Below the pieces are notes generated by a model that was not told where the DNA came from, made no database searches, and saw nothing but the letters and a program-made list of their open reading frames with translations. A program made the translations under genes and the position numbers. A stretch of DNA of 64,000 nt, from assembly GCA_963851265.1 (NCBI GenBank), contig CAWKNZ010000003.1, positions 192,001 through 256,000 on the forward strand. Direction: 5' to 3'. Positions 2 through 61,184 of this stretch are shown one piece after another. This DNA is from an uncultured Gemmatimonadales bacterium. Its GTDB lineage: Bacteria; Gemmatimonadota; Gemmatimonadetes; Gemmatimonadales; Gemmatimonadaceae. The number at the start of each line of letters is the position of its first letter. Position 1 is the stretch's first letter.

Positions 2-1177
2 CTGCCGTGGACCATCCGCGAGCACAACGCGCGGCCGATGGACGTCGTCGCCTACGACCTGCGCTCGCGCACGCCCGGAGCGACCGACCTCGCGCGGCTT
101 CGGGCCGGGCACCTCGGCGCGCAGTTCTGGAGCGTCTACATCCCGGGCGAGCCCGACGACCCCGCGTACGCGCCCAACGGCAAGGTGACCGGCACGCCGG
201 GGTACGCGCGCGTGCAGCTGGAGCAGATCGACGTCGCGCGGCGCGTGATCGCGCGCTACCCGGACCGCCTCGCGCCGGCGTTGCGCGCGGCCGACGTCGC
301 GCCCGCGATGGCGGCCGGCAAGGTCGCGTCGTTTCTCGGGATGGAGGGCGGGCACGCGATCGAGAACTCGTTGGGCGCGCTCCGGGCGTACTACGACCTC
401 GGCGTGCGCTACATGACGCTCACCCACAACGTCACGCTCGACTGGGCCGACGCGGCGCTCGACGTGCCCAAGCACGGCGGGCTCACGCCGTTCGGCGAAG
501 CGGTGGTGCGCGAAATGAACCGGCTCGGCATGCTCGTCGACCTGTCGCACGTGAGCGACGGGACGATGAGCGCGGCGCTCCGCGTGAGCGAGGCGCCGGT
601 GATCTTCTCGCACTCGTCGGCGCGGGCGCTCTGCGACCACCGGCGCAACGTGCCGGACTCGATCCTCGCGAAGCTGCCGCGCAACGGCGGCGTGGTGATG
701 GTCAGCTTCGTGGGGGCGTTCACGTCGCAGGCGGTGAAGAATCATGACGACGCGCGGGCGGCCGAACGCGCGCGGCTGCGCGCGCGCTCGGGCGCGACCG
801 ACGCGTCGGTGCGCGCCGGGGTGGCCGCGTGGGCGGCGGCGCACCCGACGCCGCGCGCGACGGTGGCCCAGGTGGCCGATCACGTGGACCACGTGCGGCG
901 CGTGGCCGGGGTGGACCACGTAGGGATCGGGAGCGACTTCGACGGCACCACGGACGTCCCGGCGGGCCTCGAGGACGTGTCGAAGTTCCCGACGCTGTTC
1001 ACCGAACTCGCGCGCCGCGGGTGGACGGAGGACGACCTCGCGAAGCTGGCCGGCGGGAACGTGCTGCGTGCGTTAGGCGAGGCGGAGCGCGTCGCGGCGC
1101 GGCTGCAGCGCGAGCGGCCGGCCGGCACCGCGACGATCGAGGCGCTCGACGGCCCGCGCGGCGCCGGCACGCGGTAG
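2..1177 (+). CDS. Membrane dipeptidase (peptidase M19), 5'-partial
   Basis: Frame open from window start (LPWTIREH...); motifs AQFWSVY, GMEGGH, YMTLTH, MLVDLSH, FSHSS, HVGIGSDFDG. Confidence 0.93.
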   Translation: MPWTIREHNARPMDVVAYDLRSRTPGATDLARLRAGHLGAQFWSVYIPGEPDDPAYAPNGKVTGTPGYARVQLEQIDVARRVIARYPDRLAPALRAADVAPAMAAGKVASFLGMEGGHAIENSLGALRAYYDLGVRYMTLTHNVTLDWADAALDVPKHGGLTPFGEAVVREMNRLGMLVDLSHVSDGTMSAALRVSEAPVIFSHSSARALCDHRRNVPDSILAKLPRNGGVVMVSFVGAFTSQAVKNHDDARAAERARLRARSGATDASVRAGVAAWAAAHPTPRATVAQVADHVDHVRRVAGVDHVGIGSDFDGTTDVPAGLEDVSKFPTLFTELARRGWTEDDLAKLAGGNVLRALGEAERVAARLQRERPAGTATIEALDGPRGAGTR

Positions 1178-1370
1178 CCGGGGGCGTTCGTGGCGGGCGC
1201 TCGCCGCGGCGATTCGCGGCACGCGCGAACGGGGCGCCGCGCGGACGCCCGAACGGGTCGACGCGGTTCGGCGCGGTTCGGGTAGATCGGCGACGTGCGC
1301 CCGCTCCGCCCTGCGTGAAGTTCTGCTGCATGCAAGCACCACCAGCGGTGTTGCGCCCCGCACATGGATT

Positions 1371-1399
1371 TTCGACGCACGCGACGCGTTCGACATAAT
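1371..1399 (+). promoter_or_regulatory. sigma70-like promoter for aldo/keto reductase operon
   Basis: TTCGAC-N17-CATAAT about 40 nt upstream of ATG 1439. Confidence 0.45.
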
Positions 1400-1438
1400 C
1401 GCGCGACCGCGGCGTGAGGGTTGCGCGCTACGCGCGTC

Positions 1439-2323
1439 ATGACGATCACCTCGGCCGCCGCGGGCGGCACCTTCCCGATCGGCGGCGACCTGCCGGTCCA
1501 CCGCCTCGGCTTCGGCGCGATGCGCATTACTGGCCGCGGCATCTGGGGCCCACCGCAGGACCGCGACGAAGCGGTCCGCGTGCTGCGCCGCGCGGTCGAC
1601 CTCGGCGTCACCTTCATCGACACGGCGGACTCGTACGGCCCGAACGTGAGCGAGGAGTTGATCGCGGAGGCGCTCCACCCCTACCCCGACGGGCTCGTGA
1701 TCGCGACCAAGGGCGGACTGACGCGCCCCGGGCCCGACCAGTGGGTGCCCAACGGTCGCCCCGAGTACCTGCGGGCGCAGTGCGAGGGATCGCTGCGGCG
1801 GCTCAAGCTCGAGCGCATCGATCTGTGGCAGCTGCACCGTATCGACCCGCAGGTGCCGGCCGACGAGCAGTTCGGGCTGCTGACCGAGCTGGTGCGCGAG
1901 GGCAAGGTGCGGCACGTGGGGCTGAGCGAGGTGTCGGTCGACGAGGTGGAAGCGGCGCGGCGCGTGGTGCCGATCGTGTCGGTCCAGAACCGATACAACC
2001 TCGCCGAGCGCACGGCGGAGCCGCTCCTGGAGTACTGCGAGCGCGAGGAGATCGGGTTCATTCCGTGGTTCCCGCTCGTCGCGGGAAAGCTGGCCGAGCC
2101 GGGGGGCGCGCTGGCGCAGGCGGCCGTGCGGCACGGCGCGACGCCGGGGCAGGTGGCACTCGCGTGGCTGCTCGCGCGTTCGCGTGTGATGCTCCCCATT
2201 CCCGGCACCTCGCGCGTGACGCACCTGGAAGAGAACGTGGCCGCCGCCGGCTTGCAGCTGACGGCCGACGAGGTCGCGCGCATCGGCGGCGAGGCGGCCG
2301 AGGGCGGCCCGGTGGCCGCGTGA
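1439..2323 (+). CDS. Aldo/keto reductase
   Basis: [56 protein letters not shown]. Confidence 0.95.
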
Positions 2324-2802
2324 GCCGCGGCGGCGCGCGCGTCTGGGGGAACGACCACCCCGCCGCGCGACTCACCGATAAGAAGGTGATCCGCTACCGG
2401 AACCTCGTCCGGAGCGGCAAGGCCACGGTGGGGGAGATCGCGGCGAAGGAGGGGTGCTCGCACGGGCGGATCTCGATGGCCGTGCGCGGCGAGACCTGGC
2501 AGCACCTGAACGACCTCGCGCCGCCCGTGCCCACGACGCCACGGCGCACCGCCGCAGAGGTCGCGCAGGCCGCGGCGAAGAAGGCGACCGCACGGCCGGC
2601 GGCGAAGCGGCCCGCCGCCAAGCGAGCGGCGACCAAGCGAACGGCGACCGAGCGGGCGGCGGCCAAGAAGGTGACCGCCAAGCGGGCGGCGCTCAAGACG
2701 GCGGCGACCCGGACCGCCCCGGCCAAGCGCGCGCCGGTCAGGACGACGGCCGCGAAGACGGGGGCGAAGGCGGCCGCCAAGCGCGCGACGGGACGTCGTT
2801 AG
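2320..2802 (+). CDS. Small basic protein: HNH-endonuclease-type HTH domain plus histone H1-like K/A/R/T tail
   Basis: GTG overlaps the AKR stop (GTGA); N-terminal [14 protein letters not shown]...[25 protein letters not shown]-terminal AAKK/AAKR repeats; 160 aa. Confidence 0.75.
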
Positions 2803-3167
2803 GCGAGCTGCTCCTCGACGCTCCGCGTCCGCGCGTCCACGACGTCGCCGGTGTGGCGTGTGGCCGCGGGCTCGAACAGGAGCAGCCAGCACTCCTCGTC
2901 GGCCACGGGGTTGTGCCGGACGCCGCGCGGCACGACGCAGCACTCGCCGGGCCCGAGCGTCACCGTCCCGCCCTCGAACTGGATGGCGAGCGAGCCGCGC
3001 ACGACGAGAAACATCTCGTCCTCGCCCGCGTGGTCGTGCCAGACGAACTCGCCCTTGAGTTTGGCGGCCTTCACGTACTGCCCGTTCAACTCGGCGATCA
3101 CCTTGGGCGACCAGTGCTCGGTGACGCGGTCGAACGCGCGCTCGATGTTGATGGCGGCGGGGAGCAT
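2799..3167 (-). CDS. Cupin domain protein
   Basis: WSPKVIAELNGQYVK...GEFVWHDH...EDEMF...VVPRGVRHNP. Confidence 0.92.
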   Translation of the reverse strand: MLPAAINIERAFDRVTEHWSPKVIAELNGQYVKAAKLKGEFVWHDHAGEDEMFLVVRGSLAIQFEGGTVTLGPGECCVVPRGVRHNPVADEECWLLLFEPAATRHTGDVVDARTRSVEEQLA

Positions 3168-3184
3168 GACGGCGGGGCGCTGGG

Positions 3185-3715
3185 TTAGCGGGCGAGCCGC
3201 GCGAGGAGCCGCGTGGCGACGTGTTGAATCAACACGAGCGAGGCGGTGATGCCGAGGGCGAGGGCGAACAGGACCACTGCACGGGTCTGGCCGGCGCCGA
3301 GGGCGAACGAGAGCGCGGTGCTCGCGGCCGGCGGGTGCACGGCGTCGGCCGCGATCATCACGCCGATGGTCACGACCATCGCGCAGGCCGCGGCCGCGTA
3401 GCCGGGGCCGAGCGCGGCGACGAGCGCCCAGCCGCAGACCGCGGCCGCGCCCTGCGCGATGAACAGCGTGCGCACCGAGTTGGCCGGGTGGGTCGGGTCG
3501 AGGTAGATGAGGAAGGCGCTCGATGCGAGCGACGCGAAAAGCAGCCGCTGCCGCGCGAGCACCTCGACGAAGGCGAGCACGAGGAGCACGGTCGCGGTGG
3601 GGAGCGCGGCGAGCGCGAGTTCGCCGCCGATCCCGAGCCGGCGCCGCGCCTCGTGCGGAGCGTCGCCGACCGGGGAAGCCGTGGTCGCGTTAGGCGCAGG
3701 CCGCCGGTCAGCCAC
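3185..3715 (-). CDS. HPP family membrane protein
   Basis: ASLASSAFLIY..P.HP and VHPPA motifs, multiple TM helices. Confidence 0.88.
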   Translation of the reverse strand: MADRRPAPNATTASPVGDAPHEARRRLGIGGELALAALPTATVLLVLAFVEVLARQRLLFASLASSAFLIYLDPTHPANSVRTLFIAQGAAAVCGWALVAALGPGYAAAACAMVVTIGVMIAADAVHPPAASTALSFALGAGQTRAVVLFALALGITASLVLIQHVATRLLARLAR

Positions 3716-4157
3716 GGGACTCGGCCGGGCGGGCGCCGGTGGCGCGGCGCGCGGCGGCCTCGGGCGCCTCGCCGGTCGCGGTGAGGCGCGAGGCCTCCTC
3801 GCGCATCTCGCGGCCGAGGAAGTAGTTGAGGCCGGTGCGGATGACCGCGATCGCGGCGAGGTTGCGGATCGTGTTCCAGCTGGGCGCGACGGCGGTCGAG
3901 AGCAGGTCGGCGCCTAACTGGAATTCGAGCGCGACGGCCAGGAAGCGCGAGAGGCGGAGCCGGACGTCGTTGTACCCGTCGGGCTCGCGCGCGAACGACG
4001 CCCGCAGGAACTGCACGACGCCGACGACCACGCCGGCCGCGATCACGAGCGCGCCGACGGTCTCGACGCCGAGGCGGAGCCAGCTGAAGACGACGCGGGT
4101 GGTGTATTCGGCCGCCCGGAAGTGTGCGTCGTCGACGACGTCCGATTGGAGGAGCAT
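3708..4157 (-). CDS. DUF1622 family membrane protein
   Basis: RLRLSRFLAVALEFQLGADLLSTAVAPSW...IAVIRTGLNYFL.RE; ATG at 4157. Confidence 0.88.
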   Translation of the reverse strand: MLLQSDVVDDAHFRAAEYTTRVVFSWLRLGVETVGALVIAAGVVVGVVQFLRASFAREPDGYNDVRLRLSRFLAVALEFQLGADLLSTAVAPSWNTIRNLAAIAVIRTGLNYFLGREMREEASRLTATGEAPEAAARRATGARPAESRG

Positions 4158-7910: not shown

Positions 7911-9159
7911 CCCGACGGTCCGCGTCCTCATCGCGATCACCGCGGGGGCGCTGCTCGGCATGCTCGCGCCGGCGGCGGGCGTGGCGACCAAGCCGCTCGC
8001 CGACGCGTTCGTCGCGCTCGTGAAGCTCGTCGTGGGGCCCGTGGTGTTCTGCACGATCGTGCTCGGCATCGCCGGGATGCGCGATCTGCGCACGGCCGGG
8101 CGCGTGGGCGGAAAGGCGATCCTCTACTTCGAGGTCACGACGACGTTCGCGCTCGCGTTGGGCCTGCTCGTCGTGAACGTGACGCGGCCCGGCGCGGGTC
8201 TCGACGCGTCGGCGCTGGTGAAGGGCGACGTGACCAAGTACGCCCAGGCCGCGCGCGAGGGGGGTGTGGTCGACCTGCTCGTGCACGCGGTGCCGTCGAG
8301 CGCGGTCGACGCGTTCGCGCGCGGCGACGTGATCCAGATCGTCGTCGTCGCGGTGCTCGCGGGCGTGGCGCTCGCGGGGATGGGGGAGCGCGGGCGCGGG
8401 CTCGCGGCGGGGCTGGGTCGCGTGCAGGAACTCGTCTTCCGCGTGGTCGCGATTGTGATGGCCGTCGCGCCGGTGGGCGCGTTCGCGGCGATGGCCTACA
8501 CGGTCGGGAGCTTCGGCGTGCGGACGCTGCTACCGTTAGGCCGGCTGATGCTCGACGTGTACGCGACGATGGCGCTGTTCGTGTTCGGCGTGCTCGGCCT
8601 CGTCGCGCGGCGCTGGGGGTTCCGGATCACGGCGCTGCTGCGGCACATCCGGGGCGAGATCGCGCTCGTGGTGGGCACGTCGTCGAGCGAGGCGGCGCTG
8701 CCGCGCCTGATCGCGAAGCTCGAGCAGTTCGGGTGCGCGCCGGAGGTGGTGGGGCTCGTGGTGCCGGCGGGCTACTCGTTCAACCTCGACGGGACGAGCA
8801 TCTACCTGTCGATGGCGGTGCTGTTCATCGCGCAGGTGTTCCGGATCGACCTTTCGTTCGGCCGCCAGCTCGAGGTGCTCGGCCTCTTGATGCTGACGAG
8901 CAAGGGCGCGGCCGGGGTGACGGGGAGCGGGTTCGTCGTGCTGGCGAGTACCCTCGCCGCGACGCACGCCGTGCCGGTAGAGGGGCTCGCGCTCGTGCTC
9001 GGCGTCGACCGCTTCATGAGCGAGGCGCGGGCGGTGGTGAACCTGATCGGGAACGCGGTCGCGACGGTGGTGGTCGCAAAAAGCGAGGGCGCGTTCGCCG
9101 AAGCGAACGCGCCCTCCACCGTGACGCGGCCGGCGACCGACGGTCGCGCGGCCGCGTAG
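7897..9159 (+). CDS. dctA: C4-dicarboxylate:cation symporter
   Basis: KAILYFEV, GTSSSEAALP, GYSFNLDGTSIY, SKGAAGVTGSGF, GVDRFMSEARA. Confidence 0.9.
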   Translation: MLPRSPTVRVLIAITAGALLGMLAPAAGVATKPLADAFVALVKLVVGPVVFCTIVLGIAGMRDLRTAGRVGGKAILYFEVTTTFALALGLLVVNVTRPGAGLDASALVKGDVTKYAQAAREGGVVDLLVHAVPSSAVDAFARGDVIQIVVVAVLAGVALAGMGERGRGLAAGLGRVQELVFRVVAIVMAVAPVGAFAAMAYTVGSFGVRTLLPLGRLMLDVYATMALFVFGVLGLVARRWGFRITALLRHIRGEIALVVGTSSSEAALPRLIAKLEQFGCAPEVVGLVVPAGYSFNLDGTSIYLSMAVLFIAQVFRIDLSFGRQLEVLGLLMLTSKGAAGVTGSGFVVLASTLAATHAVPVEGLALVLGVDRFMSEARAVVNLIGNAVATVVVAKSEGAFAEANAPSTVTRPATDGRAAA

Positions 9160-9173
9160 CCGTCGGCGAGTTC

Positions 9174-27414: not shown

Positions 27415-27415
27415 C

Positions 27416-48709: not shown

Positions 48710-48764
48710 TGCGGACGTCCTGTCGTGGTCCTGCGGTGGACCGGTCTCGCGTAAGTTAGGCCGG

Positions 48765-50034: not shown

Positions 50035-50685
50035 TCAGGCGACCGCGCCGCCCGCCCCGCGCCGCACGACCCACGTCATCATCGTGCGGCGCCCGTGCAC
50101 GACGGTGCTCTTGATGGGGTCGAGCAGTTCGCCGCCTAACGAGTCCGTCGCGGCGCGCAGCGTCGCCTCGTCGGCCAGGAACCACTCGGCGCCGTCGGGG
50201 AGGAGGTAGCGGCCGCGGCCGAGCGGGTGCACGTGGTTGTCGAGCCCCGTGCGGCCGGCGAGACGGCAGAAGAGCAGGCCGCCGGGGCGGAGCACGCGCC
50301 ACGTGCCGCGCAGCATCGCCTCGAAGTGCGCGGCGTCGCGCGCGAAGTGCAGCACCGCGCTGCTGACGACGACGTCCGCGATGGCGTCGGGGAAGGTCAT
50401 CGCCTCCACGGGCTCCGCGCGGAACGCGTCGACCGGCGTGTCCGCGGCGGCGGGGGCGAGCTCCGAGGCGAGGCGTCGCACGTCCGCGATCGCGGCGGGG
50501 TCGGCGTCGGCGCCGAGCACGCGGTAGCCCTCACGGAGGAAGTAGACGAGGTTGCGGCCGCTGCCGCAGCCCGCCTCGAGGATCGTGCTGCCCGGCGGGA
50601 TGTTGCCGCGCAGGAGCTGGTCGAACAGATAGACGTCGATCGCGCCGAAGGCGGCGCGCAGATCGGCCACGGGCTCGGGCTCCAC
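50035..50685 (-). CDS. Class I SAM-dependent methyltransferase
   Basis: IDVYLFDQL, LEAGCGSGRN, SAVLHFA, LRPGG. Confidence 0.9.
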   Translation of the reverse strand: MEPEPVADLRAAFGAIDVYLFDQLLRGNIPPGSTILEAGCGSGRNLVYFLREGYRVLGADADPAAIADVRRLASELAPAAADTPVDAFRAEPVEAMTFPDAIADVVVSSAVLHFARDAAHFEAMLRGTWRVLRPGGLLFCRLAGRTGLDNHVHPLGRGRYLLPDGAEWFLADEATLRAATDSLGGELLDPIKSTVVHGRRTMMTWVVRRGAGGAVA

Positions 50686-51774: not shown

Positions 51775-52500
51775 TCAGCCGCTCGCCACCACGCGACGCG
51801 GCGGGTACACCGCCACCGCCGAGCCCTCGGCGACGAACGCGCTCGCCGGCGCCGCCGCGAGCGCGCTTTCCCACGCCGCCCCGTACAGCCCGCGCACGTC
51901 GGCGTCGAACTCCGGGCGCTCCACGGCCCACGTTCGCCACGGCGGGTGCTCCACCTGATACTCGACCGTCCCGCCGTCGCGCTGGCGCGTGTACCCCCAG
52001 TAGTGCTCGGCGACGAACGCCGTCTCGGAACCGGCGGACGGCGCCGTGGGCGCGCCCACCGCCGTCGCGGCCGCGCGCTGCCAGCGGCCGGCGGTGCGCC
52101 ACTCGTACGCGACCCGCCCGGGTGCGTCCGTCGGCCCCCGCGGCGCGACGCTGCGCATCGGCACCGCGCGGTACGGCTCGTTGTACCCGAGGCGCGCGAC
52201 CACCGCGATCGCGGCCCGCGGCACGAGTTCGCGCACGAACGTCGCCGCGCGCCGCACCTCGCCGCCGGGCAGCTCGCGCCGCACGTAGAAGCGCAGGTTC
52301 ACCTCGTCGAAGTCGCGGTGGAACGGGACCGGGACGCCTAACAGCCGCGTGCGAAGGAAGCGGAAGCCGACGATGCTCGCGATCGCGCGACCGCGGTAGA
52401 GGTCGAGCACCGTGCCGCGGGGCGCGAGCGGCGCGAGCAGCGCCGGGTCGACGTCGTAGTTGAGCATCAGCAGGTAGCGCCACTCCGCCCGCAGAAACGG
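51775..52500 (-). CDS. DUF2071 (YqjF-like) protein; start unclear
   Basis: FL.AEWR.L.MLNY.VDP, F.EVNLRFYV, YNEPY, F..EHYWGY, YQVEHP.W. Confidence 0.85.
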   Translation of the reverse strand, partial: PFLRAEWRYLLMLNYDVDPALLAPLAPRGTVLDLYRGRAIASIVGFRFLRTRLLGVPVPFHRDFDEVNLRFYVRRELPGGEVRRAATFVRELVPRAAIAVVARLGYNEPYRAVPMRSVAPRGPTDAPGRVAYEWRTAGRWQRAAATAVGAPTAPSAGSETAFVAEHYWGYTRQRDGGTVEYQVEHPPWRTWAVERPEFDADVRGLYGAAWESALAAAPASAFVAEGSAVAVYPPRRVVASG

Positions 52501-52573: not shown

Positions 52574-55500
52574 TCACGGCGCCGGCGCCCCGCGCGCCCG
52601 CTCCGCGGCCGCCGCCGCAGCGGTCGCGCGTAGCCGTGCTTCGACGGCGGCGCGCGCCGCCGCCACGGCGGCCGTGTCGAACTCGTGGCGCGACCCGCCG
52701 CCCGACGCGGGGAAGAAGAAGCTGAACGCCGCGGGCTCGGCGTGGATCGCGGCGAGGGCGGCCGCGTACAGCGCGCGCTGCGTCGCGTACCCCGCAGCCA
52801 CACCCGCCTCGCCCCCGGCCGCGACGCGGTTGGTCTTGTAGTCGAGCACCTCGACCGCGGACCCGCCCGCGCGCGCCGCGTCCGCCACTCGGGCGACGAG
52901 GTCCATCGCCCCGTGCAGCACGTGCGGCGTGCCGTCGACCACGGCGAACCAGGTGAACGCCAGCTCGCGCTCGACCGCCTCGGCGTCCAGCAGCCGCCGC
53001 ACGTCGGGGTGCGCGCGGGTCGCCTCGACGAGCCGCGCGATGCGTGCGACCTCCGCCGGCGGCAGCCCACCCATCCCTTCGCGCTCCAGCAGGGCTTCGA
53101 GGTCGCGCCGAGCGTCGCGCGCGACGCCGCCGTCCTCTTCGAGCAGCCGGTGCACGAGGTCGCCGGCGGTTCGGGCGTCGAGCGCGGGCGCCGCACCGGC
53201 TCCGCGCGCCTCGTGCGGCACGCCGGCCGCCGGCTCGGGGCGCAGGCCGAGCACGTACTGCCGCCGGTGCGCGGCGGGGTCCCGTTCGAAGGCCATCAGC
53301 TCCGTCGCCGACCGCCGCCCGAACGGCACCGCGTCCACCCCCGCCACACGCCGGAGCAGCGCGGGGTCGAGTCGCGCCTCGCCCGCCACGTCCGCGAACG
53401 CCAGCTCGGCGGCCGCCACCTCGGCGTGCTCCGGCCGTGCCTCGCCCGCGGCGTCGCCCGCCGCGCCCTGTGCGGCACTCCGTGCCGCGATCCCGTCCGT
53501 TAGGCCGAGTGCGCCGAGCAGCCAGCGCGCGGGGCACGCCGCCGCCGCCGGCTTCGCGCCCGCGCCGGCGACGCGCGCGGGGAGGATGAGCCGCGCGCGC
53601 GCCCGCGTCGCCGCGACGTACGCGACGCGCAGCTCCTCCGCCAGCTCGCGCGCCGCCGCGCCCGCCTGCGCGCACGTCCACGCGGCGGCGACGCGGGTGA
53701 CCTTCGCGCCGGGCGCGCGCTCCTGCAGCCGCAGCGTCGCGCCTAACGCCGGGTCGAGCAGGCACGCGGGCGGGCCGAACCCGCCGCCGGCCGCGTCGCG
53801 TTCGAGGTCGCAGAGCACGACGGCCTCCCACTCGAGCCCCTTCGCGCCGTGCACGGTGGCGAGCGTGACCACGTCCTCGCCGGCCCCGTACAGCGGCGCC
53901 TCGCCCTCGCGCGCCTCGCGCCGCGCCTCCGCCGCGCGCCGCCGGTCGAGCCACGCGACGAACGCGGCGAGCGACGCGCCGCCCGCGTCCGCGCTCGCGT
54001 CGAAGGCGTCGGCGAGTTGCACGAGCTTGCGCACGTTCGCGAGCGCGCGCGCGCCGTCGGGTCCGCGCAGCAGCACGGCCGCATAGCCCGTCCGCTCGAG
54101 CGCGCGCTCCAGCAGCGCGGCCACGGGCACGCGGTCGCGCAGAAGGGCGAGCTCGTCGAGCCACGCGCGCGCCGAGGCGATGGCGCGCGCGTCGTCGGGG
54201 GCGAACGCGTGCGCGGCCGCCCCGGGCGGCACGTCCGTCGCCCCGGCCGCGCGCGCGAACGCCAGCGCGAGCGGTGCCTCGGGGTCGGCCCGTCGCACGC
54301 GCAGCAGCGCGTCGTCCGTGAGCCCGACCAGCGGCGAGCGGAGTAGCCCGAGCCACGCCACGTCGTCGTGCGCGTCCGAGACCGCGCGCAGCAGGAGTCC
54401 GCAATCGAGCACCGCGCGCGCGCCGTAGAACCCGGCCCCGCCCGCGACGTGGCACGGCACCCCCGCCGCGCGCAGCGCGTCCTCGTAGGCGGCCATGTGC
54501 GTCCGGTTGCGAAAGAGCAGCGCGACCTCGCGCGGCCGTAGCCCCGCCGCGCCGTCGGGCGTGCCACCGGCGAGGAGCGCGCGGACGCGCGCGGCCACGG
54601 CGCGGGCCTCCGCCGTGCGGCGTACGTCCACGGTGCGTGCGTCGTCGGGAGAGTCGACGAGCAGTATCTCCACCGCGCCGTCCGCACGCGACGCGTCGGG
54701 CGCGGGGCGCAGCGGGCGGAACCGGACTTCGTGGCTCGGCGCCGCCTCGTCGTCCACGGCGGGCATGAGCGCGCCGAACGCCGCGTTCACGTAGTCGACG
54801 AGCGCGGCCCCGCTCCGAAAGCTCGTGTCGAGCGCGATCCGCGGCGCGCCGAGCCGGGCGAAGTCGCGGGCCACCGCGTCCCAGAGCGAGACGTCGGCCC
54901 CGCGGAACGCGTAGAGGCTCTGCTTCGGGTCGCCGACCACGCAGAGCGAGGGCGCGGACAGCGCGAACCCCCTCGGCGCGGGCGAGCCGCCGGGAGCGGC
55001 GTCCAGCGCGTCGAGCGCCTCGCGCACACCGCAGACGAGGTACGCGACGTCGCGCTGCGCGGGATCGGTGTCCTGGAATTCGTCGACGCACAGCCAGCGG
55101 AGCCGCGCGCGCACCGCGCGCCGCACGCCGGGGTGGTCGGTCAGGAGGGCGCGCGCGCCCGCGACGAGCGCGTCGTAGTCGAGCGCGCCCGCCGCGGCGA
55201 GCGCCGTCGCGTGCCGCGCCCGCACCTCGCCCGCGATGCCCAACAGCGTCGCGCCGAGCGCGGCGGCCTCGCCGTCGAGCCGCTCGTCCCACGCCGGCGC
55301 CGCGCCCGCGGACGCGGCGGCCGAAACGGCCGCGCGCAGCCGCTCGAGGTGCGCCGACGACGGCGCCGCGCGCGGCCCGTCGCGCCCGGGCGCGCAGCCG
55401 GCCTCGCGCGCGGCGTCCAGCGCGTCGCCCGCGGCGGCGAGGCGCGCGGCCTCGCGCACCAGGCCCTCCACGCCCAGTCGGAGCGCGAGCGCCGCGGCCG

Positions 55501-55996
55501 GCGCCGCGCCCCCCGCGGGGTCGCCTAACGTGCGGAGCACGACCTCGCGCGCCGCGCGCGTCCGGAACTCCGCCGCCTCCGCCTCGTCGAGGACGCGGAA
55601 CGCGGGGTCCAGCCCCGCACGCACCCCGAACTCGCGCAGCAGGCCGCCGCAGAACCCGTGGATCGTGCCGACGCGCGCGCCATCGACGGCGTAGGCCATC
55701 CGGCGCCAGCGCGCGTCGCGCGTCGCGCGGTACTCGCGGTGCAGCCGCTCGCGAAGCGCGCCCTTGAGGTCCGCGGCCGCCGCCTCGGTGAAGGTGATCG
55801 CGGCCACCTCGTCGAGCGTGCACGGGCGCGCGGCGCGCTCGCCCGGGAGGACGTCGGCGCCGAGGTGGTGCGCGAGCTTCGCGACGAGGGTGGTCGTCTT
55901 GCCCGAGCCCGCGCCCGCCTCGATGAGCGTGTGCCCCTCGCGGCGCACGGCCTCGCGCTGGGCGTCGGTGTAGGTGCGCTGCGCGGGCGCGGTCAC
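52574..55996 (-). CDS. addA: AddA-like UvrD/SF1 helicase with C-terminal RecB-type nuclease
   Basis: AGAGSGKT, TFT, TIHGFC, DEFQDT, VGDPKQSLY.FRGAD, TVHGAKGLE, VAATRAR; G.MDL...DYKT. Confidence 0.88.
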   Translation of the reverse strand: MTAPAQRTYTDAQREAVRREGHTLIEAGAGSGKTTTLVAKLAHHLGADVLPGERAARPCTLDEVAAITFTEAAAADLKGALRERLHREYRATRDARWRRMAYAVDGARVGTIHGFCGGLLREFGVRAGLDPAFRVLDEAEAAEFRTRAAREVVLRTLGDPAGGAAPAAALALRLGVEGLVREAARLAAAGDALDAAREAGCAPGRDGPRAAPSSAHLERLRAAVSAAASAGAAPAWDERLDGEAAALGATLLGIAGEVRARHATALAAAGALDYDALVAGARALLTDHPGVRRAVRARLRWLCVDEFQDTDPAQRDVAYLVCGVREALDALDAAPGGSPAPRGFALSAPSLCVVGDPKQSLYAFRGADVSLWDAVARDFARLGAPRIALDTSFRSGAALVDYVNAAFGALMPAVDDEAAPSHEVRFRPLRPAPDASRADGAVEILLVDSPDDARTVDVRRTAEARAVAARVRALLAGGTPDGAAGLRPREVALLFRNRTHMAAYEDALRAAGVPCHVAGGAGFYGARAVLDCGLLLRAVSDAHDDVAWLGLLRSPLVGLTDDALLRVRRADPEAPLALAFARAAGATDVPPGAAAHAFAPDDARAIASARAWLDELALLRDRVPVAALLERALERTGYAAVLLRGPDGARALANVRKLVQLADAFDASADAGGASLAAFVAWLDRRRAAEARREAREGEAPLYGAGEDVVTLATVHGAKGLEWEAVVLCDLERDAAGGGFGPPACLLDPALGATLRLQERAPGAKVTRVAAAWTCAQAGAAARELAEELRVAYVAATRARARLILPARVAGAGAKPAAAACPARWLLGALGLTDGIAARSAAQGAAGDAAGEARPEHAEVAAAELAFADVAGEARLDPALLRRVAGVDAVPFGRRSATELMAFERDPAAHRRQYVLGLRPEPAAGVPHEARGAGAAPALDARTAGDLVHRLLEEDGGVARDARRDLEALLEREGMGGLPPAEVARIARLVEATRAHPDVRRLLDAEAVERELAFTWFAVVDGTPHVLHGAMDLVARVADAARAGGSAVEVLDYKTNRVAAGGEAGVAAGYATQRALYAAALAAIHAEPAAFSFFFPASGGGSRHEFDTAAVAAARAAVEARLRATAAAAAAERARGAPAP

Positions 55997-58900
55997 GTCC
56001 GCACCTCGCGGCAGGCGTCGCGCACCGCGCAGTGGGGCGGGCACCCGGCCGTGACGCACGCGGGGATCTGCGCCGGAAACACGCCGGCGACGATGCCGTC
56101 CACGTGGTACAGCGCGTGGTCGAGCGCGTCGTGCAGCCGCCGTTCGGCCTCCTCCTGGCGCGCGCCCGGGGCCGCCGCCCGCGCCCGCTTGGCGGCCGCG
56201 CTCGCGAGGTGCAGGTGCGCGGTGCGCGCGCCGCCGTGCTTCACGATCTGGTACGCCCCGCCCCACACCCCCGACTTCCCCTCGGGCAGTCGGCCGAGCG
56301 CGTGGAGGTAGAGCGGCAACTGCAGGATCCCGCCGTGCTCGTACAGCCCGACCGGCGTGAGCGAGCCCGTCGACGTCTTGTAGTCGACGGCGTACGTGAG
56401 CCCCCGCAGGGCCGGGTCGACGAACTCGTCGACGCGGTCGATGCGGCCGCGCAGGCGCAGCGTGCGGCCGTCGCGCGTGAGCGTCACGGGCGCGATCCCG
56501 CCGACGCCGAACGCGACCTCGAACGCCGCCGGACGCCGCTGCGGGGTCGCGGCGCGCGACGTCCGCTCGTTCTCCTCCACCTCCCACGCCACGTACGCGA
56601 GCACCGACTCGGCCAGCTCGGCCGCCGCCACCGCGCGCAGCGCGGGCGGCACCGCCTGCCCGTCGGCCTCGGCCTCCGCGAGCGCACGCTCGACGTGGCG
56701 CGGCACGAGCCGGTCCGCCTGCCGCAGCGCGGCGCGCGTGAGCGCGGCGTCGCCGTGCGCCTCCGCGAGCCCGCGGTGCAGCAACTCGAGCACGCGGTGC
56801 ACGAGCGTGCCGCGCGCACGCGGACCGAACGCGCTGGCCTCGTCGTCGGCGTCGGCGGGCGGGGCGTCGGGTTCGCGCACGCCCAACACGTCGCGTGCGA
56901 AGAAGTCCCACGGGCAGCGGCCGTAGCGCTCCAACTCCGCCGCACTCCACACGCGGTCGCCGTAGCGCGCGGCGAGCCACGCGCGCAGGTCGGGGCTCGT
57001 CACCGCGCCGTTCCACGCGCGCACGCTCTCGCGCGGCAGGGACGCCGGGCGCACGGCCCGCCGCGCCGCGCGCGCGCGTTCCCGCTCCGCCACGGCGAGC
57101 ACGTGCGCCACGAGCGCGCGCTCGCCCGCCTCGGCGGCGAGGTGCGCCAGGACCGCGCGCGACTCCGCGCGCGCCGCGGCGCTGTCGGCCGCGGCACGTG
57201 CGGCCGCGACGAGGTGTAGGTCCGCCGCGCACCACGCGTCCGCGACGGTGTCGGGCGCGACGGCCGACGCGCGCGCGCGCTCGACCCACGAGGCCGGCTC
57301 ACCGGAGGGCGGCTCGCCCGCGCCCGGTGCCGATGCGGCGGGCCCGGCGAGGCGCCCGACCAGGTCGTCGAAGTACGCCGAGGGCAACTGCGGGCGGCCG
57401 CGCGCGTCGCCCGCCGCGTAGCTCAGGTGCAACGAGCGCGCGGCCCCTGCGGCGAGCGTGCGCCAGAGCGACGCCTCGCGCGCGGCCCACGCGTCGGGCG
57501 CGTCGACGGGAAGCCCCGCGCGCGCGAGCGCCCGCCGCTCGTGCGCCGCGAACAGCCCGCCCCCGTCACCCTCGGCGGGAAAGCTCCCCGCCTCCATGCC
57601 GACGACGAACAGGTGGTCGCACGTGCGCCAGACCGCGGCCGACGCTTCCGCCACCTGCACGCCCCGCCGGTGCGGCGTGGTGAGCGCGAGGTCCGCGTCC
57701 TCGAGCGCCTCGGCGAGTTCGTCGTGCCACGCGGCGGCGGTGAGCACCTCGCCCGACGCGTCCGGGGCGCCCGCCCCGCCGTCGCCCAGCGCGAGCGCCG
57801 TCCGCCACGCGGCGAGCGCGTCGCCGAGCGCCGCCAGCCCTTCGACGTCGCGCCGCACGGCGTCCACCGCGAGCGCGTCGCGCGCGAACGCCTGCGGGTC
57901 GCGGTGCGGCGCGCGGCACGCGATCCGACAGAGCCCGAACACGCCCTCACGCGCGCCCTCCGCACGTTCGCGCTCCGCCCGCAGCGCCGCCGCCGCCGCG
58001 CCCGAGCCGGCCCAGCGTGTGATCGATCCACGCGCGACGTGCGCGCGGCGCGTCCGCGTCGCCGACGGTCGCGGCGAACGCCGTGAATGCGTCGCGCAGC
58101 GCCTCCGCGCGCCCGCCGCCGAGCGCGGCCGGCGCGCGCTCGTCCTCGTCGGCCTCGTCGCAGAACGCCGCGATCGCGGCCGACCACTCCGAGAGCGGGA
58201 CGGCCCGCACCGCCCCCCACCCCCGCCGGCGTGCGACGGCGGCGAGCCCCGCGGCGTCGAGCCCCGTCGCGAAGTACGGCGACCCGGCGATTGCGCCTAA
58301 CGAGGCCGGCGACCACCCCGCGGCTGCGGCCGCGCTGAGGCGCAGCAGCGCGCCCACCGCGCCCACGCGCGGCAGCGCGACGCGGAGCCGCGCCGTGACC
58401 GGTACGCCGTACCGCCGGAGCGCTTCGACCACGCGCTCGCCATACGGGCGCGCCTGGCGCGAGACGACGAGCACGCGGTGGGGCGCGACCGGCCCGGCGC
58501 CGTCCCCCTCGACGAGCAGCCGCTTCACGCGCCGCGCGACGAGGTCGGCCTCGCGCGCGACGTCGGGCGCGGCGAGCGCGCGCACGGCCGCGGGGGCGTC
58601 GCCCTGCACCGGCGCCGCCACACGCTCGAACTCCGGGCCCAACGCGAGCGCCGACGCCGCGCCCGCCGCGCCGCCGAGCAAGGTGTCCTGCACGTGCGCG
58701 AGCACCGCCGGGCGCGCCGCGGCTTCGGGGTCGGGCGCGGCGCGCTCCACCCGCGCCGGCCCGCGCGCGAGCAGCGCGTGCGCGAGCGCGTCCTCCCCCA
58801 GCGGCTCCGCGTCGTCCGCGTCGGCGTCTGCCGCGTCCCACGGGTCGCGGCACCGCAGGGCCGCCGCGTGCCGCGACCCGTGGCGCGCCGCCGCGGCATG

Positions 58901-59686
58901 GACATCCTCGGCGAGCACCGACACGCGCAGCTCGTCCACGAACGGCGCGGCGTGCAGTGCGCCCACGAGCCGCGCCCACCCGCGCCGCAGGTCGCCGAGC
59001 CCGTGCACGCACACGGTTCGCGGCGCGTCCGCGGCACCGAACGGCACACGCAGGCGCTCGCGCACCGCGTCCGGCTCCGCCGCGACGGCCTCCGCGGCGC
59101 ACGCCACCGCGTCGCGCCCGTCCACGCGCCGCAGCGCGCCGAGCGGGGGCAGCGCGCCCAGGGCGTCGACGTACGCGGCGTAGATGGCCGCGACGTCGGC
59201 GTCGCGGAGGCGCGCCCACGGGTCGTCGTGCTCCGCGCCGGTCGACGCCGGGGAGAGCGCGGCGAACGCGGCGTCGGCCTCCGCGGGCGTGACGCGCTCC
59301 GCGACGAGGTCGCCGACGAGCGCGTCGAGCGCGCGCAGCACCCCGCGCGCCGGCCGGCCGCGCCCGTTCCCGCCCACGGCGAGCGCGCGCCCCGGCGCCG
59401 CCTCCGCGGCGCGCACCAGCAGCGCCCGCCGCTCGAACGCGGTGAGCGGCGCCATCGGGCCGGCGAGCACCTCGGGCAGCTCGTGGAAGACCACGACCGG
59501 CGCGCCGAGCCACCCCGCGCACCCGGCGCGCGCGGCGCGGTCGAGCAGCGCGTCGCGCACGCCGCCCTGCCGCACGGCCACGAGCGGCAGCGGCCCCGCG
59601 GGGCGTCCCGCCACGCAGAACGGAGCGGCTACGTGCGCGAGCAGCGCGGCAGGGTCGGACGAGTGGACGAGAACGAGATCGGCCAC
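55993..59686 (-). pseudogene. addB: AddB-like protein split by a 1-nt frameshift near 58002 (ORFs 57947-59686 and 55993-57942)
   Basis: C-terminal PD-(D/E)XK nuclease (RGRIDRVD, DYKT, LQLPLY) with Fe-S-type Cys (CPW...C....C...C.....C); reading frame switches at CTCGGGCGCG; could be an assembly error. Confidence 0.75.
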
Positions 59687-59714
59687 GAGGAGGGCAGAGG
59701 GAGGGTGACGCGGG

Positions 59715-59747
59715 ACGTTGGCGGCACGTTAGCAGTACGTTAGCACG
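59715..59747. repeat. Three 11-bp-phased direct repeats upstream of addB
   Basis: ACGTTGGCGGC ACGTTAGCAGT ACGTTAGCACG. Confidence 0.6.
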
Positions 59748-59801
59748 GCGGTCGCCGGCACGCGCGCGATCCTCCCCCGCCACTCCCCCGGCCCGCAGCG
59801 C

Positions 59802-61184
59802 CTAACAAATATCGTCCGCCCCCCGCAACACCCGCCCCACCCGCTCCGGCCCCACCAGATCCTCCGCGCTCGTCGCCCCCAACTCCCGCAACCGCCGCGC
59901 CTGCGGCAGCACCCGCAGCTCCAGCGATCCCACGGCCGAGTTGTACGCGTCGCTCGCCCGCTCCAGCCCCTTCCGCATGTCCCCGAAGTGGGCGGCGAAC
60001 ACGCGCACCCGGTCGTACAACTCCCGCCCGGCCGCGCTCACCTGCTCGGCGTTGCGCGCCACGCGCTCCTGCTGCCACCCGTACGCCACCGCGCGCAGGA
60101 GCGCGATCAGCGTCGTCGGACTCGCCGCGATCACGCGCTGCGCCGCCCCGGCCTCCAGCAGCGCCGGGTCGTGCGCGAGCGCCGCGCCGAACACCCCCTC
60201 GCCCGGCAGGAACATCACGACGAACTCCGGCGCCTCGGCGAACTGCCCCCAGTAGGCCTTCGCCGAGAGCTTCGCCACGTGGTCGCGCACGTGCCGCGCG
60301 TGGTCGCGCAGCCGCTCGGCCCGCGCGCCGTCGTCGGGGGCGTCGGTGGCCGCGAGGTACGCCTCCAGCGGCGCCTTCGCGTCGACGACCACCACCTTGC
60401 CGCCGGGGAGCTTCACGACGAGGTCCGGCCGCAGCCGCCCACCCCCCTCCGCGGGCCCGTCGAGCTGCACCTGCTCGACGAAGTCGCAGTGCTCCAGCAT
60501 CCCGGCCATCTCGCACACGCGCTTGAGCTGCACCTCGCCCCAGCGCCCCCGCGCGTGCGGCGTGCGCAGCGCGTCGACCAGCTGCTGCGTGCGCGCGCCT
60601 AACGCGCGCTGCCCGTCGGCCAGCGCGCGCACCTGCGCGAGCAGCCCCTCGTAGGCGCCCGCGCGCGCGACCTCGACGGCGTGCACCGCCCCGCCCACCC
60701 GCTCGAGCGACTCGCGCAGCGGCGCGACGAGCTCGGCCACCGCGCCCGCGCGCGCCGCGTCGCGCGCGTCGAGGTCCGCCATCCCGGCCTGCTTCGCCTC
60801 GCTCGCCGCACTCGCGAGCGCCGTCCGCGCGAGGGCGAGGAAGTGCGCGCCGTTCTCGCGCAGCGCCTCCGCACTCGCGCTCTGGAAGGTTTCGAGCAGC
60901 CGCGCGTGCCGCGCCGCGTCCCCCGCGGCGGCCCGGCGCTCGGCCGCGAGCTCCGCGCCTAACGCGGCCGCGGCGCGCTCCGCCTCGCCGCGCGCCGCCT
61001 GCGCCGCGGCCCGCTCCGCGTCGCCCCGGCGCAGCGCGTCCTCGCGCTCCGCCAGGCGCGCGGCGAGCGCGGCGGCCTGCGCCGCGCCGCGCGCCCGGGC
61101 CGCGGTCCAGGCGAGGGCGCCGGCGCCCGCGGCGCCGAGCAGCAGCCCGGCGGCGGCGCCGGCGACGAGGTCGGAGGTGGGCAT
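59802..61184 (-). CDS. rmuC: DNA recombination protein RmuC
   Basis: N-terminal TM + coiled coil; [51 protein letters not shown]. Confidence 0.95.

What the first reader, a model, noticed from the sequence alone, without database searches (positions are those of the whole stretch)
1072..60963. Heptamer GTTAGGC/GCCTAAC is strongly over-represented and written into genes through the rare TTA codon: candidate undescribed genome-wide DNA signal
Seen: by manual scan, 34 exact copies. GTTAGGC starts at 1072, 2798, 3689, 8535, 20115, 21320, 22100, 33097, 36529, 39484, 41454, 42842, 44363, 47900, 48755, 49502, 53499. GCCTAAC starts at 3912, 17553, 18249, 18432, 29628, 34086, 37780, 41785, 47111, 50134, 52336, 53741, 55523, 58295, 59800, 60597, 60957. 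A rough base-composition expectation at about 77% GC is about 4 copies. Of the 34, 25 read in frame as xxG-TTA-GGC (Leu-Gly), 4 as CCT-AAC (Pro-Asn), 3 supply stop codons, 1 is GGC-CTA-ACG and 1 is intergenic. I noticed only about 3 other TTA codons (near 7317, 17161, 32672), two of them in one-mismatch variants (GTTAGAC, GTTAGGG). So synonymous codon choice appears bent to create the motif regardless of gene function. Established: this pattern is typical of DNA uptake sequences (Neisseria, Pasteurellaceae) and of cyanobacterial HIP1, whereas Chi and KOPS are replichore-polarised; here the split is 17:17. Inference: a DUS-like uptake signal, a site maintained by a methyltransferase or other DNA modification, or a nucleoid-protein binding site.
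Basis: partly seen in the sequence, partly recalled or inferred. Interest (0 to 1): 0.88.

Follow-up and report, generated by a model that had tools for sequence, protein, structure and literature searches.

The report
Genome-wide DNA word YGTTAGGC, uptake-tag-like
A soil bacterium of the Gemmatimonadaceae keeps the exact DNA word (C)GTTAGGC written about every 2.6 kb through genes, stop codons and spacers against its own codon habits, evenly spaced and on both strands, which most resembles the DNA-uptake self tags of Neisseria and Haemophilus, but what reads it is unknown.

Summary
All 34 copies sit at the stated coordinates (shuffles give 2.05). The genome holds 1762 copies against 96 expected (order-2 Markov), and 1296 inside genes against 72 under synonymous codon shuffling.

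It is a DNA-level signal, not a codon or RNA one:
- The same -1 C/T flank appears in every frame and in spacers.
- The word fills 9% of Leu-Gly and 14% of antisense Pro-Asn opportunities.
- It shows no replication polarity.

New here:
- Sites repel each other below about 500 bp, in two genera.
- Turnover between congeners is fast, along the path CTG>TTG>TTA.
- Word-poor relatives have no other abundant word.
- No DNA methyltransferase family is shared by three word-rich genomes, and no Vsr or ComP family was found.
- Pili, ComEC and ComEA are present but do not track the word.
- Integron integrase does not track it either, although the word equals the attC core.

Best reading (about 0.4): an uptake-tag-like self mark spread by biased DNA exchange. 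By my count about 60 of 201 family genomes carry it. This scan reported the same word before: six times on other windows of this genome and once in another genome.

The parts
1072..1078 (+). word, xxG-TTA-GGC (Leu-Gly) in + gene ending 1177
2798..2804 (+). word supplying the TAG stop of + gene 2320-2802
3689..3695 (+). word on template strand of - gene 3185-3715, read CCT-AAC (Pro-Asn)
3912..3918 (-). word, Leu-Gly in - gene 3708-4157
8535..8541 (+). word, Leu-Gly in + gene 7897-9159 (SDF symporter)
17553..17559 (-). word, Leu-Gly in - gene 17406-19319 (histidine kinase)
18249..18255 (-). word, Leu-Gly, same gene
18432..18438 (-). word, Leu-Gly, same gene (-1 = T)
20115..20121 (+). word, Leu-Gly in + gene 19555-20847
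21320..21326 (+). word, Leu-Gly in + gene 20910-22355
22100..22106 (+). word, Leu-Gly, same gene
29628..29634 (-). word on template strand of + gene 28861-29886, read CCT-AAC
33097..33103 (+). word, Leu-Gly in + gene 32480-33691 (SPL family)
34086..34092 (-). word, Leu-Gly in - gene 33636-34940
36529..36535 (+). word, Leu-Gly in + gene 35516-36739
37780..37786 (-). word, Leu-Gly in - gene 36811-40356 (tricorn-like protease)
39484..39490 (+). word on template strand of the same - gene, read CCT-AAC
41454..41460 (+). word supplying the TAG stop of + gene 40904-41458
41785..41791 (-). word, Leu-Gly in - gene 41455-42345
42842..42848 (+). word, Leu-Gly in + gene 42507-45518
44363..44369 (+). word, Leu-Gly, same gene
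47111..47117 (-). word on template strand of + gene 46746-47945, read CCT-AAC
47900..47906 (+). word, Leu-Gly, same gene
48755..48761 (+). word, Leu-Gly in + gene 48657-50027 (-1 = A)
49502..49508 (+). word, Leu-Gly, same gene
50134..50140 (-). word, Leu-Gly in - gene 50035-50685
52336..52342 (-). word, Leu-Gly in - gene 51775-52467
53499..53505 (+). word on template strand of - gene 52574-55996 (AddA-like), read xGC-CTA-ACx
53741..53747 (-). word, Leu-Gly, same gene
55523..55529 (-). word, Leu-Gly, same gene
58295..58301 (-). word, Leu-Gly in - gene 57947-59614
59800..59806 (-). word supplying the TAG stop of - gene 59802-61184 (RmuC)
60597..60603 (-). word, Leu-Gly in RmuC gene
60957..60963 (-). 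word, Leu-Gly in RmuC gene

Best explanation
YGTTAGGC is a double-stranded DNA mark read by an unidentified sequence-specific protein. It works per stretch of DNA of roughly 0.5-3 kb, not per gene or per transcript. The most likely mechanism is the one known for DNA uptake sequences. Fragments carrying the word are preferentially taken up or exchanged (type IV pili, ComEA and ComEC are encoded) and then recombined. Point mutations that create the word therefore spread wherever the protein code tolerates them, while mutation pressure towards GC erodes them. Shown: the statistics, strand symmetry, spacing, turnover and phyletic spread.
For: (1) Size of the excess: 1762 copies against 96 expected. 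Inside genes, 1296 against 72 under codon shuffling.
(2) It acts at DNA level. The word occurs in all frames, both gene orientations, stop codons (125 of 440 TAA stops are GCC-TAA-C; 84 of 754 TAG stops) and spacers (274 sites), always with the same -1 C/T flank. Occupancy of synonymous opportunities is as high antisense (13.7% of x-P-N) as sense (9.15% of x-L-G).
(3) No replication polarity. Beside the probable terminus on C2, L-G occupancy is 100/1145 in leading-strand genes against 11/175 in lagging-strand genes (P=0.31), and the reverse-oriented P-N class in leading-strand genes is 12/142.
(4) Even spacing. Against a null that redraws sites among codable places, gaps <=100 bp number 3 against 40 +/- 5.8, <=200 bp 11 against 77, and <=500 bp 88 against 177 +/- 10.7. 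The deficit also holds for mixed codon classes, for different genes (weaker: 15 against 26.1 +/- 4.6) and for opposite orientations, and in genus g9 (8 against 25.3 +/- 4.2 at <=100 bp).
(5) Gain and loss by point mutation at pre-existing Leu-Gly. Against congeners at about 80% identity, 44 of 88 and 42 of 94 G000 sites are shared. The other genome most often has GTTGGGC (44), GCTCGGC (37) or GCTGGGC (22) of 276 unshared sites. Only 5 of 57 sites are shared by three species. CTG in the G_GGC context falls to 0.18-0.31 of its usual share, against 0.51-0.76 in word-poor genomes. The word is kept in 45-50% of aligned sites, against 0-44% for 12 control heptamers.
(6) Shared spelling across lineages: by my count of the table, about 60 of 201 genomes in 21 of 64 genera have at least 2x the control word.
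(7) Machinery is present: pilin genes with PilS/PilR, ComEC and an HHH_3 (ComEA-type) protein.
(8) A few inverted pairs form hairpins between convergent genes.
(9) Even spacing, lack of chromosome-wide orientation bias, few single-mismatch forms and growth by point mutation are described for DUS/USS in passages of PMC1939737.
Against: - Natural transformation has not been shown in this phylum. The three papers that hold all terms are, by title and abstract, not about uptake sequences in Gemmatimonadetes, and the listing showed no paper containing 'Gemmatirosa'.
- No ComP_DUS family member was found.
- Nothing tested tracks the word. The orphan pilin is found in 185 of 201 genomes regardless. 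The C9 pilin is in all 5 panel genomes. The C3 pilin is present in word-poor G006 and not found in word-rich G049. TfoX_N is present in G006 and not found in G058. ComEC and ComEA are also present in word-poor G106 and G006.
- The word is short: 396 copies are expected from base composition alone, so the contrast with foreign DNA is far weaker than for 9-12 bp DUS/USS.
- There are no dialects. Four word-poor genomes have no abundant word of their own, and the spelling is identical in all word-rich genera.
- One genome of genus g50 lacks the word (G106, 66 against control 190) while five congeners have 3244-4141. This demands fast gain or loss.
- Spacers are only mildly enriched (15.6% of sites in 11.4% of the genome).
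- A 45-kb core region has none.
Confidence: 0.4

Rival explanations
1. The word is an intracellular chromosomal mark: an evenly spaced binding or loading site for a recombination/repair enzyme or a nucleoid-organising protein, kept by selection on the host chromosome and not by DNA exchange.
For: Short-range repulsion and near-regular coverage in two genera. The length (7-8 bp) and density (1 per 2.6 kb) are, from recall, in the range of Chi-type sites. An AddAB-like pair and RmuC lie in the window. No extracellular receptor candidate was found.
Against: There is no replication polarity where fork direction is clear, unlike Chi or KOPS. No candidate reader was identified. The on/off pattern within genera is odd for a core chromosome function. 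Exclusion from the parAB/origin-type region is not conserved. Turnover is high: 35 of 57 sites are species-specific.
Confidence: 0.25
2. The word is read by an integron-integrase-type tyrosine recombinase, because it is spelled like the R' / R'' core of integron attC and attI sites. The dispersed copies would then be solitary recombinase-binding half-sites.
For: GTTAGGC fits the core-site consensus GTTRRRY, and GCCTAAC is the R'' of attC-aadB (passages of PMC12901181). G000 has folded attC-like pairs GCCTAAC..66-149 nt..GTTAGGC. In the integron-array loci fetched from word-poor G021/G023 I found 18 such pairs. GTTAGGC is the commonest GTTRRRY variant in those loci (59 of 110), and the cores carry -1 C50/T47 and +8 G56/T3, like the dispersed word (-1 C79/T14, +8 G54/T5).
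Against: TIGR02249 over its cut-off does not track the word. It is intact in 11 word-poor genomes (G005-7, 9, 10, 14, 19, 20, 26, 28, 29). It is split in G000, partial with a stop in G001 and frameshifted in G012, all three word-rich. More than 1700 copies are solitary and lie inside genes, where cassette insertion would be harmful. The attC flanks +9 G83 and +10 C83 are not shared by the dispersed word. A heptamer matching some known site can arise by chance.
Confidence: 0.08
3. The word is a modification site kept abundant by a methyltransferase together with biased very-short-patch repair, as proposed for cyanobacterial HIP1.
For: Hyper-abundance inside genes against codon usage is also the HIP1 pattern (recalled). 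Some one-mismatch neighbours are below their Markov expectation, though that expectation is inflated by the word itself.
Against: G000 (94% complete) has no hit to PF01555, PF00145 or PF02086 and only frameshifted pieces of PF02384. G058 has none of the first three, and no family is common to G000, G012 and G058. No Vsr in 5 of 5 genomes. The word is not palindromic. A repair bias does not predict site-to-site repulsion. Other methyltransferase families were not searched.
Confidence: 0.05
4. The signal acts on RNA or translation: a TTA (rare tRNA-Leu) pause or regulatory codon in the context G-UUA-GGC.
For: 57% of sites (999 of 1762) are sense G-TTA-GGC, and 77% of TTA codons lie in the word.
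Against: 382 sites lie antisense in genes, 274 are intergenic and 194 overlap stop codons, all with the same -1 flank. Antisense occupancy is higher than sense. Repulsion holds between opposite orientations and between different genes.
Confidence: 0.02

Closest known systems
DNA uptake sequences (DUS of Neisseriaceae, USS of Pasteurellaceae; 'DUES')
   Same: An exact short word thousands of times per genome. It occurs on both strands equally, with no chromosome-wide orientation bias. It lies in genes and spacers, in frames set by codability. Spacing is even, near-miss forms are few, and growth is by point mutation at existing sequence. It is shared by related genera, and a few inverted pairs sit at gene ends (literature passages).
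   Different: The core is 7-8 bp instead of 9-12 bp. The phylum is different. No ComP family was found. There are no dialects. One spelling is shared by 21 genera with on/off differences inside genera. Spacer enrichment is weak. Uptake bias is untested.
Integron attC / attI core site (R' GTTRRRY, R'' RYYYAAC)
   Same: Identical heptamer, with a similar -1 pyrimidine and a +8 that avoids T. Genuine attC-like pairs with this core exist in G000 and in relatives.
   Different: attC sites are paired, folded elements 60-150 nt long at cassette ends. Here more than 1700 copies are solitary and inside ordinary genes. Integrase presence does not track abundance.
HIP1 (GCGATCGC) of cyanobacteria
   Same: A hyper-abundant octamer written into genes against codon usage (recalled).
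   Different: HIP1 is palindromic and linked to a methyltransferase. This word is asymmetric, and no shared methyltransferase or Vsr was found.
Chi and KOPS/AIMS polar motifs
   Same: Short, over-represented words spread over the core genome. An AddAB-like enzyme is encoded.
   Different: Those motifs are skewed to the leading strand. Here there is no skew once codability is accounted for.

Membership tests
DNA uptake sequences (DUS/USS) | Exact short word far above expectation across the whole genome | tested here: met
   1762 against 96 (order-2 Markov); it is the top 7-mer. 1296 against 72 under codon shuffle.
DNA uptake sequences (DUS/USS) | Both orientations equal, no replichore polarity | tested here: met
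   885 + and 877 -. Occupancy in leading- and lagging-strand genes does not differ (100/1145 against 11/175, P=0.31).
DNA uptake sequences (DUS/USS) | More even spacing than chance | tested here: met
   Gaps <=200 bp: 11 against 77 +/- 8.1. G012: <=200 bp 22 against 48 +/- 4.6.
DNA uptake sequences (DUS/USS) | Preferential uptake of word-bearing DNA by competent cells | not testable with these tools
   This needs uptake or transformation assays. No report of competence in the phylum appeared in the library searches.
DNA uptake sequences (DUS/USS) | Cognate receptor (ComP-family minor pilin in Neisseriaceae) | tested here: not met
   PF16732 over its cut-off in 0 of 5 genomes; one sub-threshold hit in G058. 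The pilins tested do not track the word.
DNA uptake sequences (DUS/USS) | Uptake machinery encoded (type IV pilus, ComEA, ComEC) | tested here: met
   Pilin ORFs and PilS/PilR. ComEC and HHH_3 in 5 of 5 genomes, word-poor ones included, so this is not specific.
DNA uptake sequences (DUS/USS) | Lineage-specific dialects among related genera | tested here: not met
   The spelling is the same in all word-rich genera. 200-kb samples of G006, G015, G028 and G029 show no abundant word.
Chi / KOPS polar motifs | Strand skew co-oriented with replication | tested here: not met
   The reverse-oriented P-N class in leading-strand genes is 12/142, as high as the forward L-G class at 100/1145.
HIP1-type methyltransferase-linked word | Cognate DNA methyltransferase present wherever the word is abundant | tested here: not met
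   None of PF01555, PF02384, PF00145 or PF02086 is shared by G000, G012 and G058. Other families were not searched.
Integron attC / attI site | Heptamer fits GTTRRRY / RYYYAAC | tested here: met
   Exact fit; consensus as quoted in PMC12901181.
Integron attC / attI site | Paired inverse core and core in a folded element at cassette boundaries | tested here: not met
   About 8 pairs fold as attC-like elements. The remaining sites, roughly 1750, are solitary: 46 of 1750 neighbour gaps are <=200 bp.
Integron attC / attI site | Abundance depends on an integron integrase | tested here: not met
   TIGR02249 is intact in 11 word-poor genomes and broken in word-rich G000, G001 and G012.
bldA-type TTA codon regulation | Signal confined to the sense strand of mRNAs | tested here: not met
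   382 antisense genic and 274 intergenic sites carry the same flank.

The most novel reading that the evidence does not exclude
The DNA-exchange machinery of many Gemmatimonadaceae may be tuned to the core recombination site of integron gene cassettes (Y-GTTAGGC-R). The receptor would first have served to capture cassette DNA from the soil gene pool. The thousands of copies in ordinary genes would be the by-product of the resulting uptake-and-recombination drive. That would link natural transformation and integrons mechanistically, and it would be the first uptake signal outside the Proteobacteria.
Probability: 0.08. Interest if true: 0.9.

Novelty: new variant of a known kind. Interest (0 to 1): 0.72.

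Why it matters
Sequence-specific self tags for DNA exchange are known from only two proteobacterial families. A third, independent case, in an abundant but little-studied soil phylum, would be valuable for three reasons. It has a different word length. It switches on and off within genera. Its spelling equals the integron core site. Together these would give a natural experiment on how such tags arise, spread and decay, and a handle on gene flow in soil.

Tried and rejected
- Exclusion from the origin/ParB zone. The largest word-free gap of G000 (C1:182876-227962, 45 kb, 13.5 sites expected) holds mnmG, parA, parB and mnmE. The parB neighbourhood is only sparse in congeners G001 and G004 and has normal density in three other genera (G049, G175, G058). 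It is therefore not a conserved exclusion.
- Replication polarity (Chi/KOPS): none.
- Dialects in word-poor relatives: none in four 200-kb samples.
- Methyltransferase or Vsr drive: no shared family.
- Neisseria-type receptor: PF16732 not found.
- Reader candidates by presence or absence, none of which tracks the word: orphan pilin, C9 and C3 minor pilins, TfoX_N of the window, ComEC and ComEA, integron integrase.
- Clusters of sites as a flag for an autoregulated reader gene: the 19 close pairs show hairpins at convergent gene ends and tandem copies, but no common neighbour.
- Reads for nicks or modification: the look-up of sequencing runs listed only contig-level holders with small shares (at most 0.15) and no RNA holder.
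- Full-text search for the word itself gave only an integron paper and a primer.
- An unbiased whole-proteome phyletic profile could not be run, because other genomes can only be fetched in 20-kb pieces.

Full report
**Observation.** Dinucleotide-preserving shuffles of the window give 2.05 on average and at most 9. The window is 72-80% GC. It is G000:C3:192001-256000 of a 4.60-Mb, 12-contig genome. Genome-wide there are 1762 copies, 885 + and 877 -. Expectations are 396 (base composition), 160 (order 1) and 96 (order 2), and this is the highest-scoring heptamer. TTAGG occurs 1925 times, 1762 of them inside the word. The octamer CGTTAGGC accounts for 1396 copies.

**Gene context.** No gene caller is provided, so I wrote a codon-log-odds ORF picker. 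It calls 3762 genes, 88.6% coding, with GC3 of 0.93. All frame statements depend on it. The 1762 sites fall as follows:
- 999 as sense xxG-TTA-GGC
- 201 as antisense xxG-CCT-AAC
- 71 as antisense xGC-CTA-ACx
- 23 as GTT-AGG-C
- 194 overlapping stop codons
- 274 intergenic (15.6% of sites in 11.4% of the genome)

By a direct count, 125 of 440 TAA stops are GCC-TAA-C and 84 of 754 TAG stops are xGT-TAG-GC. TTA is used 1304 times, 999 of them in the word. In the window my calls give 26 Leu-Gly, 4 Pro-Asn, 3 TAG stops and 1 CTA. Four TTA codons lie outside the word, three of them in one-mismatch variants.

There are 1296 sites wholly inside genes. Within-gene synonymous shuffles, which keep every TTA, give 71.6 +/- 10.2 over 30 shuffles. 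Redrawing codons from non-word usage gives 31.2 +/- 4.0. For the window the figures are 31 against 1.27 and 0.40.

**It is a DNA signal, not a codon or RNA signal.**
- The base before the word is C in 74-89% (T in 2-15%) of every class, spacers included. The base after it avoids T. The unit is therefore YGTTAGGC.
- I counted, for each frame, how many places in the proteome could hold the word synonymously. The word fills 994 of 10859 x-L-G places (9.15%), 197 of 1442 x-P-N places on the opposite strand (13.7%), 72 of 1889 [SCRG]-L-T places (3.8%) and 24 of 3429 V-R-x places (0.7%).
- The 3:1 excess of coding-strand copies thus reflects how common Leu-Gly is, not a strand preference.

**No replication polarity.** GC skew is weak. 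Contig C2, however, has a sharp convergence of gene orientation at about 1.35-1.40 Mb, next to a Xer-like gene, which I take as the terminus. In the flanking 590 kb, L-G occupancy is 100/1145 in leading-strand genes and 11/175 in lagging-strand genes (P=0.31). The reverse-oriented P-N class in leading-strand genes is 12/142. A Chi- or KOPS-like skew is not there.

**Spacing.**
- Neighbouring sites are farther apart than chance. Over all sites, 46 gaps are <=200 bp against 130 for an exponential model.
- Against a stricter null that redraws the same number of coding sites among codable places, gaps <=100 bp number 3 against 40.0 +/- 5.8, <=200 bp 11 against 77.3, <=500 bp 88 against 176.8 +/- 10.7, and <=1000 bp 271 against 318.
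- The deficit holds for pairs of different codon classes (30 against 62.5), in different genes (15 against 26.1 +/- 4.6, the weakest of these) and of opposite orientation (26 against 55.7). It is therefore not a rare-codon effect.
- In a 236-kb sample of G012 (another genus, 62.8% GC, one site per 709 bp) the same holds at shorter range: <=100 bp 8 against 25.3 +/- 4.2, and <=300 bp 37 against 66. There the word fills 27.5% of L-G, 45% of P-N, 47.5% of L-T and 20.5% of V-R places in the genes my caller found. The caller was trained on G000 and reached only 63% coding there.
- Spacers are the exception. They hold tandem copies 12-43 bp apart and about six inverted pairs that form hairpins between convergent genes.

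**Evolution of sites.** I fetched 400 kb each of two congeners and aligned them to G000 with blastn, keeping best non-overlapping HSPs of at least 400 bp and 72% identity.
- G004: 215 kb aligned at 80.7% identity. 44 sites are shared, 44 are only in G000 and 95 only in G004.
- G001: 298 kb aligned at 79.6%. 42 are shared, 52 only in G000 and 85 only in G001.
- At the 276 unshared sites the other genome most often has GTTGGGC (44), GCTCGGC (37) or GCTGGGC (22). These are synonymous Leu codons before Gly. The rest differ more, and some change the protein.
- In 68 kb aligned in all three species, only 5 of 57 sites are in all three, 17 in two and 35 in one.
- The word is nevertheless kept more often (50% and 45%) than any of 12 control heptamers (0-44%), and more than its neighbour GTTGGGC (20% and 27%).
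- In the G_GGC context, Leu is TTA 17.3% (0.24% elsewhere), TTG 7.8% (3.7%) and CTG 8.6% (34.9%). The CTG ratio is 0.18-0.31 in three word-rich genomes against 0.51-0.76 in four word-poor ones.
- I infer that most sites arise by two synonymous transitions, CTG>TTG>TTA, and decay back through TTG. This would also explain the genome-wide excess of GTTGGGC (1393 against 631).

**Who has it.** Contig titles of close relatives say Gemmatimonadaceae, with the nearest labelled Gemmatirosa sp..
- Among 31 relatives, all five genomes of the genus are rich in the word. So is G012 of another genus (7758 against 891 for the reversed control word). Most others are far below the control, and G030 of a second family is intermediate.
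- In 201 genomes of the family (64 genera), the octamer is at least twice the control in about 60 genomes of 21 genera, by my count of the table.
- There are sharp contrasts inside genera. In g50, G106 has 66 against control 190 while five congeners have 3244-4141. In g23, G031 has 173/226 while G160 has 1991/332.
- Four word-poor genomes (200 kb each) have no abundant word of their own. This is an on/off trait with a single spelling, not a set of dialects.

- Methylation: G000 has no hit to PF01555, PF00145 or PF02086 and only frameshifted pieces of PF02384. Word-rich G058 lacks the first three. No family is shared by G000, G012 and G058. Vsr is not found in any of 5 genomes.
- Uptake machinery: G000 encodes pilin-like proteins, PilS/PilR, ComEC and HHH_3 (ComEA-type) proteins. 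So do word-poor G106 and G006.
- The ComP_DUS family is not found.
- An orphan pilin is conserved in 185 of 201 genomes regardless of the word.
- One minor pilin is in all five panel genomes. Another is in G012, G058 and word-poor G006, but was not found in word-rich G049 or in G106.
- The window's TfoX_N gene does not track the word.

**The integron coincidence.**
- GTTAGGC/GCCTAAC is a canonical spelling of the integron core and inverse core sites, GTTRRRY and RYYYAAC (passages of PMC12901181).
- G000 has about eight folded attC-like pairs and an integron integrase gene split into two pieces about 2 kb apart.
- In the integron-array loci fetched from word-poor G021 and G023 I found 18 attC pairs. 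Their cores carry -1 C50/T47 and +8 G56/C22/A19/T3, which resembles the dispersed word. They also carry +9 G83 and +10 C83, which the dispersed word lacks.
- Integrase over the family cut-off occurs in 18 of 31 relatives and does not follow the word.
- I keep this as an unexplained coincidence. It underlies the boldest reading that is still allowed.

**A lead that failed.** The largest word-free gap (45 kb, 152 codable places, 13.5 sites expected) is not a foreign island. It is a core region holding mnmG, parA, parB and mnmE. If the word were barred from the origin/ParB zone, that would favour a chromosome-organisation role. The parB neighbourhood is only sparse in congeners G001 and G004, and it has normal density, with sites within 1-3 kb of parB, in G049, G175 and G058 of three other genera. 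The idea is rejected. The gap itself stays unexplained.

**Verdict.**
- The features measured match the published description of DUS/USS: no orientation bias, even spacing, scarce near-misses and growth by point mutation (passages of PMC1939737).
- I rate an uptake-tag-like self mark spread by biased DNA exchange at about 0.4.
- A cytoplasmic evenly spaced mark is the main rival (0.25).
- Integrase-type reading (0.08), methylation or repair drive (0.05) and RNA-level readings (0.02) are weaker.
- I found nothing in print on this word in the Gemmatimonadota. One search listed two unrelated papers. I saw search listings only.
- This scan has reported the same word before: six times on other windows of this genome and once in another Gemmatimonadaceae genome. 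Those notes reached the same closest-known family. My own tests agree with them and add the spacing, polarity, turnover, dialect, methyltransferase and candidate-reader results.

Noticed in passing
G000:C1:182876-227962 (outside the window): This 45-kb stretch has no copy of the word although 13.5 are expected. It holds core genes (mnmG, parA, parB, mnmE), has native GC, and GC3 of 0.90 against 0.92 genome-wide. The matching zone is sparse in congeners but normal in three other genera.
   Followed up: yes
G000:C6:3005-3166 and 5244-6044; C6:1592-1708; C10:188936-203792: The integron integrase gene is split into two pieces about 2 kb apart. attC-like folded sites carrying the word as inverse core and core lie nearby, so this is probably a decayed chromosomal integron with cassettes.
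   Followed up: partly
window 52574-61184 (- strand): A recombination gene cluster: an AddA-like helicase-nuclease, an AddB-like nuclease whose N-terminal 555-aa part is a separate ORF in another frame 4 nt upstream (57947-59614 against 55993-57942), and RmuC. The split could be real, a frameshift or an assembly error.
   Followed up: no
window 25680-28666 (+ strand): A small operon of a PqqD-like protein, a transglutaminase-like (Transglut_core3) protein, an unknown 337-aa protein and an NTP_transf_5 protein. The first two are, from recall, the pair seen in lasso-peptide type clusters. No precursor peptide was looked for.
   Followed up: no
window 32480-33691 and 46746-47945; 31191-31541: Two spore-photoproduct-lyase-family genes lie 13 kb apart, along with a stand-alone TfoX_N domain gene. 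The latter does not track the word in relatives.
   Followed up: partly
G000:C7:771474-772495 and C9:923-1858: The only PF02384 (N6 DNA methyltransferase) matches in the genome are broken into several frames near contig ends. They are pseudogenes or assembly errors.
   Followed up: no
G000:C2 about 1.35-1.40 Mb: Gene orientation switches from about 95% + to about 90% - (a convergence), next to a Xer-like recombinase gene at C2:1346667-1347503. This is the probable replication terminus.
   Followed up: partly
G106 against G058, G140, G168, G191, G212 (genus g50): One genome of the genus has baseline counts of the word (66) while five congeners have 3244-4141.
   Followed up: partly
G021 loci L179-L183 and G023 loci L184-L186: These loci hold dense integron cassette arrays with attC sites mostly 83 nt apart core-to-core, in genomes that are otherwise poor in the word. 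GTTAGGC is the commonest GTTRRRY variant there (59 of 110).
   Followed up: partly
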